A stretch of 3,484 nucleotides of DNA from Escherichia coli. GTDB taxonomy: Bacteria > Pseudomonadota > Gammaproteobacteria > Enterobacterales > Enterobacteriaceae. The position numbers and the translations under genes are program-made. Shown here in pieces: positions 1 to 3,484 of the stretch. The notes below the pieces were generated by a model. The model saw nothing but the letters and a program-made list of their open reading frames with translations, did no database searches and was not told where the DNA came from. Each line of letters opens with the position of its first letter. Position 1 is the first letter of the stretch. The stretch lies in assembly GCF_003334385.1 (NCBI RefSeq), contig NZ_QOWN01000093.1, one strand, 5' to 3'.

Positions 1-1
1 G

Positions 2-940
2 TCAGAAATATACGGCCGGCAAGGTGTGGAGCTGAGCCGTTCACTGCTGTCGGGCTGGGTGGATGCATGCTGCCGGCAGCTGTCTCCGCTGGAAGAGGCG
101 CTTCATGGCTATGTGCTGACTGACGGTAAGCTCCATGCTGATGACACGCCTATCCCGGTGCTGTTGCCAGGCAATAAGAAAACGAAGACCGGGCGGTTAT
201 GGACCTACGTTCGTGACGACCGTAACGCCGGGTCAACGCTGGCGCCGGCGGTGTGGTTCGCTTACAGCCCGGACAGAAAAGGCATCCATCCGCAGACCCA
301 TCTTGCGGGGTTCAGTGGTGTACTGCAGGCGGATGCATACGCCGGGTTCAACGAGCTGTACCGGGATGGCCGGATAACGGAAGCCGCCTGTTGGGCTCAC
401 GCCCGCCGTAAAATCCACGATGTGCACGTTCGCACCCCGTCAGCCCTGACGGAGGAAGCGCTGAAACGGATCGGCGAACTGTACGCCATCGAGGCAGAGA
501 TAAGGGGAATGACGGCGGAGCAGCGCCTTGCCGAACGTCAGTTGAAAACGAAACCGCTGCTGAAATCCCTGGAAAGCTGGCTGCGTGAAAAGATGAAAAC
601 CCTGTCGCGACACTCAGAACTGGCGAAAGCGTTCGCATACGCCCTGAACCAGTGGCCGGCGCTGACGTACTATGCAGATGATGGCTGGGCTGAGACGGAC
701 AATAACATCGCTGAAAATGCGTTGCGGATGGTCAGTCTGGGCCGCAAAAACTACCTGTTCTTCGGTTCGGATCATGGAGGAGAGCGGGGAGCGCTGCTGT
801 ACAGCCTGATCGGGACGTGCAAACTGAACGGAGTGGAGCCAGAAAGCTACCTCCGCTATGTCCTTGACGTCATAGCCGACTGGCCGATAAACCGGGTCGG
901 CGAACTGCTCCCCTGGCGCGTAGCACTGCCGACTGAATAA
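2..940 (+). CDS. IS66-family transposase (TnpC/ORF3-type), C-terminal ~312 codons; 5' end lies upstream of the window
   Basis: The frame is open from the window edge (the track's ATG at 26 is internal; no in-frame stop from nt 2) to TAA at 938-940. The translation carries motifs I recognise from IS66 transposases ([51 protein letters not shown]-terminal LPW). Codon usage is typical enterobacterial. Confidence 0.9.
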
Positions 941-977
941 CACATCCCCGTCAATACGGTTCTTGCTGCACGCTTAC
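941..977. repeat. Candidate right terminal inverted repeat region of the IS66-family element
   Basis: This is the sequence between the transposase stop and the predicted terminus; the complementary strand reads GTAAGCGTGCAGCAAGAACCGTATTGACGGGGATGTG from the end inward. The IR length cannot be confirmed without the left end. Confidence 0.4.
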
Positions 978-1164
978 CCTTCTGTTGCTCACTCAGGGCA
1001 TGTAAATCATGCTCAAACCACGCCCCCTGAGCATCTGTCTGCAGAATCAACCGGCCATGACAGGAAAGGCAGAAACAATGCCGGATATTTCTGCTGAGCG
1101 CAGAGTCGGCACTGATAATGTGCTCACCCGGCGTGATCCCCAGCCCCGTTTTTATACCGTTCAT
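978..1164 (-). pseudogene. 5' fragment (~62 native codons) of a CoiA-N-terminal-like zinc-finger gene, interrupted by the IS66 insertion
   Basis: ATG at 1164-1162 overlaps the TGA stop (1163-1161) of the upstream gene in an ATGA arrangement. The native translation MNGIKTGLGITPGEHIISADSALSRNIRHCFCLSCHGRLILQTDAQGAWFEHDLHALSEQQK repeats the C-x-x-C ... WFEH motif of the upstream paralog. From codon 63 the frame reads into IS terminal sequence, so the track's 102-aa ORF (856..1164) is a chimera. Confidence 0.5.
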
Positions 1165-1544
1165 TCTGCTACCCCCTCCTCACTGAAACGCCCGGTCTGG
1201 CAGTGTGTGCAGTACTGCTCCCCATAATAATCGTGGTGACATTGCCTGCAGTACCAGCTGGCTTTACGTACCACGGGTAAGGCATCCGGGACGAATTGCT
1301 GCAGACGTTTAATCAACCGTATTTCTCTGCGTTCCGGCCTGACATAAGGACATTGCTGCGCGTGCTCCGTCAGCCCGTCGTCAGTGTGTTCAAACCAGGG
1401 CCGTTCGGTGTCGTATTGCGGGTGGTATCTGAGTGCACTGCCGCAAAGGTGGCAGGTGTAGTGGGCATAAGGAGCAGTCTGTGCGGTACGGGCACCGATC
1501 AGACGTCCGTTGCCATCAAGTGCGAGAAAAGATTTTGCGTACAT
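1161..1544 (-). CDS. Zinc-ribbon protein, 127 aa, with CoiA-like N-terminal Cys/His motif and a C-terminal C-x2-C-x10-C-x2-C ribbon
   Basis: Intact ORF from ATG 1544-1542 with an AGGA Shine-Dalgarno-like sequence ~10 nt upstream, ending at TGA 1163-1161. The N-terminus (YTCHLCGSALRYHPQYDTERPWFEH) resembles the Y-x-C-P-x-C-G ... H-F-A-H motif I recall from competence protein CoiA. The C-terminus has CRQCHHDYYGEQYCTHC. Confidence 0.7.
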   Translation of the reverse strand: MYAKSFLALDGNGRLIGARTAQTAPYAHYTCHLCGSALRYHPQYDTERPWFEHTDDGLTEHAQQCPYVRPERREIRLIKRLQQFVPDALPVVRKASWYCRQCHHDYYGEQYCTHCQTGRFSEEGVAE

Positions 1545-1710: not shown

Positions 1711-2280
1711 TCAGCCACGACTGCAGCCAAAATTGCGCTCACCGGTGCCGTAAGCTTTGGTACTCTCCTTCGCCAGATAGTCAGCACGCTCCAGCACCTG
1801 CTGAAAGCCGGTGTCATCATCGCGTTCCAGCCACACCGCCGGCCTGACCGGAAAATGTGCCAGCGTGTCATAACGTCCGGCATCCACTCCCAGGGCACTG
1901 CACCACGCCTGTTTAATCATCCCGGCCAGTGATCCCGGAGCGCGGTAATCGCCGGCACGACACCAGGTATCCCGGTTGACCAGCAGCATCAGGTGATAGT
2001 GTTTTTTACCTTTGCACTCCCCAAACTCCCGGGCCCAGACGTAATGCAGGGTTGTGGGATGCACGCGTTTACCTTCCCGATGCTTACGTTTCTGGTAAGC
2101 GTCGATTCGGGCTTTCAGGGCATTGATGAAGCGGGATATCACAGCTGCGTCCGTTGCTGCCGGTACATCCGGGAGACGCAGGTCAACCCGCAATGCCGTC
2201 AGGCGGGGATGAACATTCAGTGCGTGCCGCACCGTCTCACGAATACGTTGCTGCCAGAAGGGGTTGTATTTGTAGGTCAT
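1711..2280 (-). CDS. YagK/YfjJ-family (inovirus Gp2-like) protein, 189 aa from the ATG at 2280
   Basis: ORF ends at TGA 1713-1711. The ATG at 2280-2278 has GGAG 8 nt upstream, whereas the track's upstream ATG at 2316 has no purine-rich RBS. The translation (MTYKYNPFWQQRIRETVRHALNVHPRLTALRVDLRLPD ... HYHLMLLVNRD ... KAYGTGERNF) matches my recollection of the YagK/YfjJ family of CP4-type prophage-like elements; not verified by search. Confidence 0.75.
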   Translation of the reverse strand: MTYKYNPFWQQRIRETVRHALNVHPRLTALRVDLRLPDVPAATDAAVISRFINALKARIDAYQKRKHREGKRVHPTTLHYVWAREFGECKGKKHYHLMLLVNRDTWCRAGDYRAPGSLAGMIKQAWCSALGVDAGRYDTLAHFPVRPAVWLERDDDTGFQQVLERADYLAKESTKAYGTGERNFGCSRG

Positions 2281-2288
2281 GGTTAAAT

Positions 2289-2308
2289 CTCCGTATGGTT
2301 CATACGGA
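2289..2308 (-). promoter_or_regulatory. Ribosome-binding site overlapped by a perfect 8-bp inverted repeat (TCCGTATG-GTT-CATACGGA) upstream of the Gp2-like gene
   Basis: The arms at 2290-2297 and 2301-2308 are exact reverse complements with a 3-nt loop. The GGAG Shine-Dalgarno (complement of 2289-2292) lies in the 3' arm of the potential mRNA hairpin, 8 nt before the ATG. Confidence 0.3.
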
Positions 2309-2427
2309 ATAACCACGTCGTAAAAAATGCGCAGAACCCCTGAGGTGACCTCCGGCAGGACACTGTCTCAGGCACTCTGTGATAACCCGAACGGTCATCG
2401 CCGGACTGACGATTGAATTCCCGGCGT

Positions 2428-2449
2428 TGTTTTTTTAATGTAAAAAACA
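2428..2449. promoter_or_regulatory. AT-rich dyad (TGTTTTTT-TAATGT-AAAAAACA) in the divergent intergenic region; candidate operator or promoter element
   Basis: Perfect 8-bp inverted repeat with a 6-bp spacer, midway between the divergent Gp2-like gene and the small zinc-ribbon ORF. It overlaps -10-like hexamers (TTTAAT/TAATGT), with a TTGAAT -35-like hexamer at 2412-2417. Confidence 0.25.
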
Positions 2450-2481
2450 GGTTACGGATAAGGCGTGGAGAGGGAGCGATC

Positions 2482-2673
2482 GTGATATGCAAAAAGAAGT
2501 GCAGGGACTGTGGTAACGCAATTACTCATAATACAGTATGTTGCCCGTATTGTGGCGCTGTCGACCCCTTCGGTTATTACCGGAAGACCGATCGTCTGCT
2601 CTGTTTACTGACGTTACTGCTGCTGATTCTGGTTACCGTTTCAGGCGTCAGTGTATTTGTACTGTTGCAGTAG
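2482..2673 (+). CDS. Small zinc-ribbon membrane protein, 63 aa (GTG start): N-terminal C-x2-C-x9-CC-x2-C ribbon and C-terminal hydrophobic helix
   Basis: GTG at 2482 is preceded by GGAGAGGGAG (2467-2476) at 5-nt spacing; the track's TTG start at 2413 has no RBS. Translation: (M)ICKKKCRDCGNAITHNTVCCPYCGAVDPFGYYRKTDRLLCLLTLLLLILVTVSGVSVFVLLQ, with stop TAG at 2671-2673. The run of ~23 hydrophobic residues is consistent with one transmembrane segment. Confidence 0.5.
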   Translation: MICKKKCRDCGNAITHNTVCCPYCGAVDPFGYYRKTDRLLCLLTLLLLILVTVSGVSVFVLLQ

Positions 2674-2701
2674 GTTACAGGGGAGGGATTATCAGGAATC
2701 G

Positions 2702-2730
2702 GCGGGGCAGAGCGACCCGCTGCGTTTGTT
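2702..2730. terminator. Possible intrinsic terminator between convergent genes (GCGGG-9 nt loop-CCCGC followed by a T-rich tract)
   Basis: 5-bp GC stem at 2702-2706 / 2716-2720, followed by TGCGTTTGTTGT, ~30 nt after the small ORF stop. The stem is short and the loop long, so this is weak. Confidence 0.25.
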
Positions 2731-2785
2731 GTGCCAGACAGTAACGCACCGGCTCCCTGCAAAATGGTACCTGAATCAATCACAG

Positions 2786-2986
2786 TCAGGTATTCCGCCA
2801 ATCCGTGATCGAATCGAGCGGAATACTCAGCCCCGACAAATACGAGTCCCCTTCAGAAGATACAGGCCGGTAATGCCTGAACGCCTGCCCCTCTGTACAC
2901 CATTCCCTTTTGATTTCGAATTCTTTGTTGCCGTTATACTGCTTAATGTTCCCGATCTTCCGGTGCACAGATAACACCGGAGTCAT
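2786..2986 (-). CDS. Hypothetical 66-aa protein (low confidence), immediately downstream of the Hha-like gene
   Basis: ATG at 2986-2984 lies 19 nt after the Hha-like stop, with no clear Shine-Dalgarno. The translation MTPVLSVHRKIGNIKQYNGNKEFEIKREWCTEGQAFRHYRPVSSEGDSYLSGLSIPLDSITDWRNT has no recognisable family, and several rare codons (AGG, CGG, GGG) lower confidence. Confidence 0.25.
   Translation of the reverse strand: MTPVLSVHRKIGNIKQYNGNKEFEIKREWCTEGQAFRHYRPVSSEGDSYLSGLSIPLDSITDWRNT

Positions 2987-3005: not shown

Positions 3006-3484
<479 letters not shown>

What the first reader, a model, noticed from the sequence alone, without database searches (positions are those of the whole stretch)
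2482..2673. Small zinc-ribbon protein with a single C-terminal transmembrane helix, divergent from the operon
The 63-aa ORF has a strong RBS and a clear two-part architecture: an N-terminal Cys4 ribbon followed by one hydrophobic helix. Small membrane-anchored zinc-ribbon proteins in mobile elements are largely uncharacterised. Its position divergent from the Gp2-like operon across a 200-bp control region suggests coordinated or opposed regulation.
Basis: partly seen in the sequence, partly recalled or inferred. Interest (0 to 1): 0.45.

Follow-up and report, generated by a model that had tools for sequence, protein, structure and literature searches.

The report
Small membrane-anchored zinc-ribbon island protein
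This is a real but uncharacterised 63-residue gene of an E. coli genomic island that encodes a four-cysteine zinc-ribbon head held at the inner membrane by one C-terminal helix; its relatives were found almost only on mobile DNA, and its function is still unknown.

Summary
The ORF at 2482-2673 (+) is as described: GTG start, Shine-Dalgarno 5 nt upstream, CxxC-x10-CxxC ribbon, basic juxtamembrane stretch and one C-terminal hydrophobic helix. It is a gene. The ribbon half has dN/dS 0.05-0.3 between lineages. The helix half changes freely but stays hydrophobic. The block Gp2-like gene <- 200 bp -> ORF was present in all 16 related loci where the upstream flank could be read, including Salmonella. 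About 65% of complete E. coli genomes match this region. RefSeq already annotates it as "hypothetical" or "zinc-ribbon domain-containing" protein. No function is known.

In this window the ancestral ATG one codon upstream is ATC, so GTG 2482 is the likely start. Some other copies are frameshifted, deleted or have lost a cysteine.

New here: the protein is homologous (hhalign 98.6%) to small ORFs on conjugative plasmids (IncF tra region, opposite orientation) and on other contigs. Five of the six relatives examined are paired with an uncharacterised "ASCQGHG" protein that is absent from the islands. The 200-bp divergent region is more conserved than synonymous sites.

Best reading, with low mechanistic confidence: a tail-anchored adaptor whose cytoplasmic zinc ribbon binds an element-encoded partner. 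Moderately interesting; new member of a known kind.

The parts
2467..2476 (+). Shine-Dalgarno region (GGAG at 2467-2470 and GGGAG at 2472-2476) of the small ORF
   Evidence: Read directly from the sequence. A purine-rich GAGGAGGGAG or GGAGAGGGAG block is kept upstream of the start in the 15 loci listed.
2479..2481 (+). ATC codon at the position of the ATG start used by most relatives
   Evidence: ten loci have ATG-GTG here; the window, L001, L011, L012 and L015 have ATC-GTG. PGAP still starts the CDS at this codon in L001.
2482..2673 (+). Small ORF, 63 aa plus stop, GTG start: tail-anchored zinc-ribbon protein
   Evidence: Annotated as a hypothetical protein in near-identical genomes. Homologues.
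2482..2595 (+). Zinc-ribbon head and juxtamembrane motif (CRDCG...CCPYCG..DPFGYYRKTDR), residues 1-38
   Evidence: dN/dS 0.05-0.32 between lineages. Fisher p 0.01 to 4e-6 for nine of ten pairs. Variable columns by codon position 10/13/23 of 39. The invariant residues lie here.
2596..2670 (+). C-terminal transmembrane helix, residues 39-63
   Evidence: Kyte-Doolittle 2.71. AlphaFold2 helix 36-62. Three divergent alleles are all hydrophobic. Nucleotide similarity between allele groups drops at about 2595.
2281..2478 (.). Divergent control region between the Gp2-like gene and the small ORF, highly conserved
   Evidence: 84-99% identity between lineages, against 54-82% at ribbon third positions. 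23% variable columns. Inverted repeats at 2290-2308 and 2428-2449. The minus-strand RNA fold has z = -3.0.
1711..2280 (-). Gp2-like (YagK_YfjJ_C, PF11726) gene, first gene of the divergent operon
   Evidence: PGAP name 'inovirus Gp2 family protein'. PF11726. phrog_25019 at 4.5e-41.
1161..1544 (-). 127-aa 'putative zinc ribbon protein' (DUF7828/Zn_ribbon_11), second gene of the operon
3006..3146 (-). Truncated Hha/YmoA-like gene, convergent with the small ORF
   Evidence: NCBIfam Hha at 3.9e-21, matching profile positions 28-71 of 72. Annotated 'missing N-terminus' in L001 and L028.

Best explanation
The ORF is a genuine gene of a CP4-44/CP4-57-like E. coli genomic island.

Shown:
- It encodes a 63-66-residue protein with an N-terminal Cys4 zinc ribbon, a conserved basic juxtamembrane motif (DPFGYYR-x-TDR) and a single C-terminal hydrophobic helix.
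- The ribbon and motif are under purifying selection.
- The helix only has to stay hydrophobic and is exchanged between alleles.
- The gene is fixed in divergent orientation next to the Gp2/YagK-like gene across a hyper-conserved 200-bp spacer.
- It is homologous to small ORFs found mostly on conjugative elements.

Inferred:
- By the positive-inside rule the ribbon faces the cytoplasm and the helix is a tail anchor.
- The helix serves as a tether and the ribbon is the working part.
- The protein therefore most likely acts as a membrane-tethered adaptor or regulator. It would bind an element-encoded partner, protein or nucleic acid, and hold or sequester it at the inner membrane. In the islands the partner would be a product of the divergent Gp2/zinc-ribbon operon or the element's DNA. 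In most relatives elsewhere it would be the co-conserved ASCQGHG protein.
- Its expression would be set by the shared divergent control region.

I put about 0.9 on 'real, translated, tail-anchored zinc-ribbon membrane protein'. I put about 0.35 on the adaptor/sequestration mechanism. The overall score reflects the mechanism.
For: - Coding: ribbon dN/dS 0.05-0.32; Fisher p 0.01 to 4e-6 for nine of ten pairs; codon-position variability 10/13/23.
- Relatives outside the islands are also under selection: dN/dS about 0.1, p as low as 3e-12.
- Architecture.
- Anchor-like helix: three unrelated-looking hydrophobic alleles. Helix dN/dS is about 1.3-3 between alleles, while the second codon position is the least variable.
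- Fixed synteny with Gp2 in all 16 loci with a readable upstream flank, including Salmonella.
- Conserved spacer.
- Homology to the second branch of the family: hhalign probability 98.6%, E 6.7e-16.
- Those relatives lie on 120 plasmids, 116 of them conjugative.
- In five of the six relatives examined the ORF is paired with a conserved partner.
- No match to known defence proteins.
Against: - No experiment or expression data were available. Topology, zinc binding and any partner are all inferred.
- The island copies lack the ASCQGHG partner, so the two branches may not share a mechanism.
- The ribbon is modelled with low confidence, pLDDT 56-64.
- No Pfam zinc-ribbon model reaches significance; the best is 0.032.
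- Some copies are decayed: frameshift in L011, 107-nt deletion in L020, fourth cysteine lost in L014, ATG to ATC here. This shows the gene is dispensable in at least some hosts.
- A small hydrophobic protein on a mobile element is equally the classic profile of a membrane toxin.
Confidence: 0.4

Rival explanations
1. It is a small membrane-active toxin or effector of the type I toxin, holin or abortive-infection kind. The helix would oligomerise and damage or depolarise the inner membrane. The ribbon would be a sensor or regulatory cap. Expression would be kept low by the divergent control region or by antisense transcription.
For: - The protein is small, has a strongly hydrophobic helix and sits on mobile elements.
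- In five of the six relatives examined the ORF is convergent with a partner gene that overlaps its 3' end by 12-120 nt. That is an antisense-prone layout.
- In IncF plasmids the ORF runs against the tra genes.
- One relative sits next to PhD/PIN and another near CcdAB toxin-antitoxin genes.
Against: - Selection is strongest on the soluble ribbon, not on the helix.
- The polar domain is N-terminal and the helix C-terminal, the reverse of Hok, TisB or Ldr-type toxins (my own knowledge).
- Thousands of E. coli genomes carry the ORF without the partner.
- No PADLOC match.
- The only antisense promoter-like site, 2564-2535, is within chance expectation and its -10 element is not conserved.
Confidence: 0.2
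2. It is an establishment, exclusion or anti-defence factor of mobile elements. As a membrane-located protein it would act on incoming DNA or on a host membrane protein, giving entry or superinfection exclusion or countering a host defence, rather than regulating the element's own genes.
For: - Relatives lie inside or beside transfer and leading-region-type genes: traN/trbC, TraG/TraH, DotM, T4CP, SSB, topoisomerase III, AcaB.
- The family was found mostly on mobile DNA.
Against: - The island protein exposes only 1-3 residues beyond the helix. It has almost nothing in the periplasm to block entry.
- It is essentially absent from phage genomes.
- No PADLOC match.
- The tight linkage to the Gp2-like gene points to an element-internal role.
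Confidence: 0.15
3. It is a non-functional relic: the N-terminal stub of a once longer zinc-ribbon/helix/ectodomain protein. It would persist only because it sits next to a conserved regulatory region.
For: - PHROG matches cover only the first ~50 positions of 136-178-residue profiles.
- Sequence downstream of the helix is unrelated between alleles.
- Helix dN/dS is 1 or higher.
- The start codon is mutated here, and frameshift, deletion and cysteine-loss variants exist.
- The island in the window is heavily decayed by IS66 and IS3 insertions.
Against: - Ribbon dN/dS is 0.05-0.3 with third-position excess.
- Length is held at 63-66 aa in E. coli and Salmonella.
- All relatives are also small, 59-83 aa, and under selection.
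- The helix stays hydrophobic in every allele.
Confidence: 0.1
4. The conservation reflects DNA- or RNA-level function, an extension of the control region or origin used by the Gp2-like protein, and not a protein.
For: The adjacent spacer is more conserved than the ORF and is rich in inverted repeats.
Against: - Within the ORF, change is concentrated at third codon positions and is mostly synonymous.
- The ORF mRNA is not unusually structured, z = +0.9.
- Relatives elsewhere keep the protein, not the DNA.
Confidence: 0.03

Closest known systems
RefSeq/PGAP proteins WP_032218841.1, WP_032144956.1, WP_001547002.1 ('hypothetical protein') and WP_001347328.1 ('zinc-ribbon domain-containing protein') of E. 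coli
   Same: Same gene at the same position between the Gp2-like gene and the Hha-like gene. The DNA of this region is 95-99% identical in L001, L028, L015 and L016; the L002 copy carries a different helix allele..
   Different: Nothing of substance. The window copy has ATC at the annotated start, Cys for Arg at residue 3, and one fewer helix codon. None of these records carries a function.
Generic zinc-ribbon families (Pfam UPF0547 PF10571, Zn_ribbon_3 PF13248, zinc_ribbon_2 PF13240) and the many 'zinc ribbon domain-containing proteins' with a helix after the ribbon
   Same: Two CxxC knuckles about 10 residues apart, followed by a transmembrane helix. Foldseek lists dozens of such proteins just below significance. 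PF13240 and PF13248 are recorded for two distant hits.
   Different: No Pfam model reaches significance; the best is 0.032. Most of those proteins are longer and carry an extracytoplasmic domain after the helix. None has a known function.
Unnamed small ORF of IncF and other conjugative plasmids (P0086, P0124, P0090, P0146; for example S. flexneri plasmid NZ_LR213457.1 46,0xx, between trbC and traN)
   Same: Homologous: hhalign probability 98.6%. Shared pattern CxDCG-x9-C-x2-C-x-S-x-DPFG-x2-R-x2-DR followed by a helix. Size 59-83 aa. Found mostly on mobile elements. Under purifying selection.
   Different: 29% identity. These relatives have a longer tail after the helix. Five of the six examined are convergent with, and overlapped by, an ASCQGHG-motif gene that the islands lack. 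They are not linked to a Gp2-like gene.
PHROG families 38187, 14275 and 10292 (phage proteins of unknown function)
   Same: An N-terminal ribbon-plus-helix segment matches at E 4e-5 to 7e-3.
   Different: The profiles are 136-178 residues long and only their first ~50 positions match. Function unknown. The island protein itself is essentially absent from phage genomes.
Type I toxins and other small membrane toxins (Hok, TisB, Ldr, Ibs) - from my own knowledge and review PMC12648545
   Same: Small size, a single hydrophobic helix, and location on mobile elements.
   Different: Those toxins have no zinc ribbon; the word 'zinc' does not occur in the 2025 review of small membrane proteins. Their helix is N-terminal or central. 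They have a defined antisense RNA, and none is evident here.
Phage phi29 p16.7, and zinc-binding membrane anti-sigma factors (my own knowledge) - functional analogies only
   Same: Small proteins anchored by a single helix whose cytoplasmic domain binds DNA or a regulator and holds it at the membrane. In phi29 the gene sits next to replication genes.
   Different: No sequence or fold relation. p16.7 has an N-terminal helix and no zinc. The anti-sigma HxxxCxxC helical domain is not a ribbon. This is an analogy for the mechanism, not membership.

Membership tests
Zinc ribbon (Cys4 two-knuckle fold) | Two CxxC (CPxCG-type) knuckles separated by about 8-20 residues | tested here: met
   C7-x2-C10 and C21-x2-C24 (CPYCG). 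These are kept in nearly all intact relatives and are invariant across both branches of the family.
Zinc ribbon (Cys4 two-knuckle fold) | Significant match to a curated zinc-ribbon profile (Pfam or NCBIfam) | tested here: not met
   Best Pfam matches are UPF0547 at 0.032 and Zn_ribbon_3 at 0.074. None reaches 0.001. No NCBIfam match.
Zinc ribbon (Cys4 two-knuckle fold) | Predicted beta-hairpin ribbon fold, and bound zinc | tested here: inconclusive
   AlphaFold2 gives short beta bridges at pLDDT 56-64 only. Zinc binding cannot be tested with these tools.
Tail-anchored (C-tail) inner-membrane protein | A single hydrophobic helix within the last ~30 residues, no signal peptide, and a soluble N-terminal domain | tested here: met
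   Kyte-Doolittle 2.7-3.0 over residues ~40-62. Only 1-3 residues follow the helix. The helix is modelled at 36-62.
Tail-anchored (C-tail) inner-membrane protein | N-terminal domain in the cytoplasm, and membrane insertion shown | not testable with these tools
   Only the positive-inside rule supports it: net charge +3 or +4 before the helix, with RKTDR/RNTDR at the boundary.
DPFG-motif ribbon-helix family of mobile elements (defined here) | Profile-profile homology to the second branch of the family, and the shared DPFG-x2-R-x2-DR motif | tested here: met
   hhalign probability 98.6%, E 6.7e-16 over 52 columns. Whole-library hmmsearch E 6e-5 to 9e-5 for the full-length relatives P0086 and P0090.
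DPFG-motif ribbon-helix family of mobile elements (defined here) | A convergent, 3'-overlapping ASCQGHG-motif partner gene | tested here: not met
   An hmmsearch with the partner profile over six-frame translations of all island loci found nothing below E = 1.
DUF2116 Zn-ribbon family (the name NCBI gives to relative P0146) | A match to Pfam DUF2116 | tested here: not met
   DUF2116 is not among the Pfam matches even at E <= 10.
Type I toxin-antitoxin toxin | A cis- or trans-encoded antisense RNA that controls translation | tested here: inconclusive
   One antisense promoter-like site, no more than chance and not conserved. No Rfam family matched. No transcript data.
Type I toxin-antitoxin toxin | Toxicity on expression through membrane damage | not testable with these tools
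   This needs an expression experiment.
Known anti-phage defence proteins (PADLOC) | A match to a defence-system profile | tested here: not met
   No family at E <= 0.01 for the island ORF or its neighbours. One chance-level hit (0.014, restriction enzyme) for the plasmid ORF.

The most novel reading that the evidence does not exclude
The island ORF is the partner-less branch of an undescribed two-gene module. The module is a tail-anchored DPFG zinc-ribbon protein plus a ~125-150-residue ASCQGHG protein, convergent with overlapping 3' ends. It has been inserted repeatedly into transfer and leading regions of unrelated conjugative plasmids or ICEs, and it also occurs on two contigs without recognisable transfer genes. 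The module would be a new kind of mobile-element function, for example a membrane-sequestration switch, a new toxin-antitoxin or exclusion pair, or an establishment or anti-defence factor. In E. coli islands the ribbon protein would have been re-wired to the Gp2-like replication module.
Probability: 0.2. Interest if true: 0.6.

Novelty: new member of a known kind. Interest (0 to 1): 0.35.

Why it matters
- About two thirds of complete E. coli genomes, including Nissle 1917-type and ST131-type strains, carry this gene or a remnant of it. It sits next to the presumed replication and regulation module of a very common class of genomic island, and nothing is known about it.
- Zinc-ribbon small membrane proteins are absent from current reviews of bacterial small membrane proteins.
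- The link to a conserved but mostly unannotated ORF inside the tra region of clinically important IncF plasmids of E. coli and Shigella gives two tractable systems for asking what such proteins do for mobile DNA.
- The hyper-conserved divergent spacer is a ready-made target for dissecting how these islands are switched on.
- If the gene turns out to be only an accessory tether, the finding is a routine annotation improvement.

Tried and rejected
- A peptide-pattern scan of one genome per species found no confirmed relative. The family is narrow, and the three K-12 island regions I examined lack it.
- Rfam found nothing relevant in the window.
- NCBIfam, Pfam, PADLOC and PDB sequence searches gave no significant match for the ORF.
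- A Foldseek search with the ORF model found only its own orthologues.
- I tested whether the 127-aa zinc-ribbon protein of the island operon is the counterpart of the plasmid partner. It is not; BLASTP E is 0.02-0.09.
- The partner profile is absent from all island loci.
- The partner's structure (pLDDT 85) has no PDB match. Its AlphaFold-database neighbours are all uncharacterised apart from two uninformative labels, so it gives no functional clue.
- The promoter and terminator scan gave counts equal to shuffles. The antisense promoter-like site is not conserved.
- A covariation test of the spacer RNA fold was uninformative because the region hardly varies; only 1 of 53 pairs shows a compensatory change.
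- Literature searches on YagK/YfjJ, the inovirus Gp2 family, and tail-anchored zinc-ribbon small proteins found no functional study. One search timed out.
- I considered and rejected the overlapping frames 2538-2744 (+) and 2577-2801 (-) as genes. Sequence downstream of 2673 is unrelated between alleles.
Full report
**1. The observation.** The frame at 2482-2673 (+) is open and encodes MICKKKCRDCGNAITHNTVCCPYCGAVDPFGYYRKTDRLLCLLTLLLLILVTVSGVSVFVLLQ.
- GGAG (2467-2470) and GGGAG (2472-2476) precede the GTG.
- The cysteines form C7-x2-C10 and C21-x2-C24.
- The best 19-residue Kyte-Doolittle window is 2.71 (residues 44-62), and the first 38 residues carry net charge +4.
- AlphaFold2 with a 12-sequence alignment gives a helix at 36-62 (pLDDT 83-89) and a poorly defined ribbon (pLDDT 56-64).
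- None of 728 open shuffles out of 20,000 had both features.
- The Gp2-like gene starts at 2280 on the other strand, so the spacer is about 200 bp.

The description is correct.

**2. Where the window comes from.** The region is 99% identical to chromosomes of E. coli G1/2, Nissle 1917 derivatives and O25b:H4 strains.
- It is part of a CP4-44/CP4-57-like genomic island. The order is: IS66; two DUF7828/Zn_ribbon_11 genes (the second cut by the IS); the YagK_YfjJ_C 'inovirus Gp2 family' gene; the small ORF; a convergent Hha-like gene (truncated here; an IS3-family element follows it in the near-identical strain G1/2); then AlpA, a 200-aa protein, YfjI/DUF3987, a YeeP-type GTPase and Ag43.
- 3,532 of 5,426 complete E. 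coli genomes match window 2280-2800, with a median of 2 and up to 6 places per genome. 1,782 of them match over at least 80% of the query.
- The K-12 regions CP4-57, CP4-6 and CP4-44 that I examined lack the ORF.
- PGAP already annotates it as 'hypothetical protein' or 'zinc-ribbon domain-containing protein'.

**3. Is it a gene?** I compared the locus in related E. coli and Salmonella loci spread over the identity range.
- For codons 1-39 (ribbon plus juxtamembrane motif), Nei-Gojobori dN/dS is 0.05-0.32 between lineages. Fisher p for non-synonymous against synonymous change is 0.01 to 4e-6 for nine of ten representative pairs, and 0.2 for the near-identical pair.
- Variable columns fall 10/13/23 on codon positions 1/2/3.
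- The helix half behaves differently. There are three alleles: LLCLLTLLLVLILVTVSGVSVFVLLQ, IVTILLALIIVVLLTTVSVSVYILCSW and IFTALVALLVVVLLVTSALSVYVLW. Between the first two, dN/dS is about 1.3-3. Every allele is strongly hydrophobic (Kyte-Doolittle 2.7-3.0), and the second codon position is the least variable.
- Nucleotide similarity between allele groups collapses at about 2595, the ribbon/helix junction, and the sequence beyond the stop codon is unrelated. The helix and its 3' flank therefore look like a recombining cassette.

I conclude that the ORF is protein-coding. The ribbon and the DPFGYYR-x-TDR motif form the constrained part, and the helix is a generic anchor.

**4. State of this copy and of others.**
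- Ten of the 15 loci compared at the start codon begin ATG-GTG-ATA-CGC (MVIR...). The window, L001, L011, L012 and L015 have ATC in place of ATG. The invariant GTG, 5 nt from GGGAG, is the likely start here.
- The window copy also has Arg to Cys at residue 3 and a one-codon deletion in the helix.
- Decay occurs elsewhere: a frameshift in L011, a 107-nt internal deletion in L020, loss of the fourth cysteine in L014, and several frameshifted database entries.
- The gene is therefore maintained in most copies but not in all.

**5. Linkage to the Gp2-like operon.**
- The gene order Zn_ribbon_11 <- Gp2-like <- | -> ORF was present in all 16 related loci with a readable upstream flank, including Salmonella L006 and L007.
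- An Hha-like gene was convergent in all of those that reach far enough downstream, except L017.
- The 198-bp spacer is 84-99% identical between lineages whose ribbon third positions are only 54-82% identical. E. coli L017 against Salmonella L006 gives 99.0% for the spacer and 88.9% for the ribbon. Only 23% of spacer columns vary, against 39% for the ribbon and 59% for the helix.
- The spacer contains a perfect 8-bp inverted repeat, TCCGTATG-gtt-CATACGGA (2290-2308), that overlaps the Gp2 Shine-Dalgarno. In one lineage it has a 5-nt insertion confined to the loop.
- It also contains an AT-rich palindrome at 2428-2449 and a long imperfect repeat whose loop is the main variable stretch.
- As minus-strand RNA the spacer folds better than shuffles, z = -3.0. 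Covariation cannot be assessed because the region hardly varies.
- Simple promoter scans are uninformative.

The 'shared control region' idea is thus supported by conservation, but the direction of regulation is untested.

**6. Relatives.**
- Word-indexed and exhaustive searches show a narrow family. There are 56 clusters in 5.8 billion proteins, and 25 representatives at E <= 1e-10 in 1.84 billion. Nearly all are E. coli, with Shigella, Salmonella and Klebsiella.
- The island type is rare on plasmids (8 records) and essentially absent from phages.
- The exhaustive search also found weaker full-length hits to other 59-83-residue proteins sharing CxDCG...C-x2-C-x-S-x-DPFG-x2-R-x2-DR plus a helix. 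A profile-profile comparison confirms homology: 98.6%, E 6.7e-16.
- Most of these relatives lie on conjugative elements. On 120 plasmids (116 conjugative, mostly IncF of E. coli and Shigella) the ORF sits between trbC and traN in the orientation opposite to the tra genes, mostly unannotated. Others lie beside TraG/TraH, DotM, a T4CP, or SSB, topoisomerase III and AcaB. Two further relatives (L033 and a Cellvibrio contig, L034) lie on contigs with no recognisable transfer genes.
- They are under purifying selection: dN/dS about 0.1, p as low as 3e-12.
- In five of the six relatives examined, the exception being L024, the ORF is convergent with a 126-198-residue gene that overlaps its 3' end and carries an invariant A-S-C-Q-G-H-G motif.
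- That partner has no Pfam, NCBIfam, PADLOC or PDB relative. It has a confident model (pLDDT 85) whose AlphaFold-database matches are essentially all labelled 'uncharacterized protein'.
- The partner is absent from the island loci and is not related to the island's 127-aa zinc-ribbon protein.

**7. Comparison with known families.**
- No curated profile reaches significance: Pfam best 0.032; NCBIfam none; PADLOC none; PDB best 0.07, which are generic ribbons of reverse gyrase and RNA polymerase subunit P.
- Three PHROGs of unknown function match only with their N-terminal ~50 positions.
- Foldseek lists many 'zinc ribbon domain-containing proteins' with the same ribbon-then-helix layout, all below significance.
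- A 2025 review of bacterial small membrane proteins does not mention zinc at all (PMC12648545).
- A preprint on a widespread class of AlpA-carrying islands lists an inovirus Gp2-like protein among likely core genes, but gives no function and no small neighbour (10.1101/2024.08.29.610337).
- The protein is thus a member of the broad, functionally blank class of ribbon-plus-helix proteins. It also belongs to a specific subfamily, found mostly on mobile DNA, that has not been described.

**8. Mechanism.**
- Shown: coding; the architecture; a constrained head and an exchangeable anchor; fixed divergent linkage to the Gp2-like gene; a constrained spacer; relatives mostly on mobile elements and mostly with a co-conserved partner.
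- Inferred: a cytoplasmic head (positive-inside rule, and cysteine-bound zinc needs the reducing cytoplasm); tail-anchor insertion; and a role as a membrane tether or sequestering adaptor for an element-encoded protein or nucleic acid. This is analogous in principle to phi29 p16.7 or to membrane anti-sigma factors (my own knowledge; no homology).
- I give about 0.9 to the structural statement and about 0.35 to the adaptor mechanism.
- Rivals: membrane toxin or effector (0.2); exclusion, establishment or anti-defence factor (0.15); decaying stub (0.1); DNA-level conservation only (0.03).

**9. Verdict.** The finding is correct and the gene is real, widespread and uncharacterised, but its kind is familiar and databases already list it as hypothetical. 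The interest lies in three things: the plasmid relatives with their unknown partner, the exchangeable anchor, and the hyper-conserved divergent spacer. Interest is 0.35. Novelty: new member of a known kind.

Noticed in passing
window 2281-2478: The spacer between the Gp2-like gene and the small ORF is more conserved (84-99% identity; 23% variable columns) than synonymous sites of the flanking ribbon codons. It contains a perfect inverted repeat at 2290-2308 that overlaps the Gp2 Shine-Dalgarno, with a 5-nt insertion confined to the loop in one lineage, and an AT-rich palindrome at 2428-2449. The minus-strand RNA folds with z = -3.0. It could be an operator set, a structured leader, or an origin for the Gp2-like protein.
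   Followed up: partly
L026 5001-5588; L021 5001-5588; L022 5001-5564; L029 6001-6576; L033 2273-2860; L034 4632-5369: Relatives of the ORF on these plasmids and contigs form a conserved convergent gene pair with a 126-198-aa protein. The two genes overlap at their 3' ends. The partner carries an invariant ASCQGHG motif and has no known domain, no PDB fold match and essentially only uncharacterised AlphaFold-database relatives. On IncF plasmids the pair sits between trbC and traN, and the small ORF, which runs opposite to the tra genes, is mostly unannotated.
   Followed up: partly
window ~2595 (ribbon/helix junction) to 2800: Nucleotide similarity between island lineages breaks at the ribbon/helix junction. 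The helix and everything downstream exist as at least three unrelated-looking alleles, which suggests a recombination breakpoint inside the gene.
   Followed up: partly
window 2479-2481; L001 12200-12202: The ancestral ATG is ATC in this lineage, yet PGAP annotates the CDS from the ATC. The next codon, GTG, is invariant in the 15 loci compared and is the more plausible start.
   Followed up: yes
window 1-960 and 856-1164: An IS66-family transposase gene (the 3' part, ending at 940) abuts and truncates the second DUF7828/Zn_ribbon_11 gene of the Gp2-like operon. The same junction is present in strain G1/2 and in Nissle 1917 derivatives.
   Followed up: partly
window 3006-3146 and 3215-3484: The convergent Hha/YmoA-like gene lacks its N-terminal ~27 codons. 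The last bases of the window appear to enter an IS3-family element, which follows the truncated hha gene in strain G1/2 (L001). The island in this window is therefore a decayed copy.
   Followed up: partly
L008 6233-6802 (Gp2-like gene): The precomputed Pfam list shows a weak REP_ORF2-G2P hit in addition to YagK_YfjJ_C. This hints that the Gp2-like protein may be a replication initiator.
   Followed up: no
L016 1-713: Some islands carry further YagK/YfjJ-domain genes upstream of the zinc-ribbon genes, so the Gp2-like module can be duplicated within one island.
   Followed up: no
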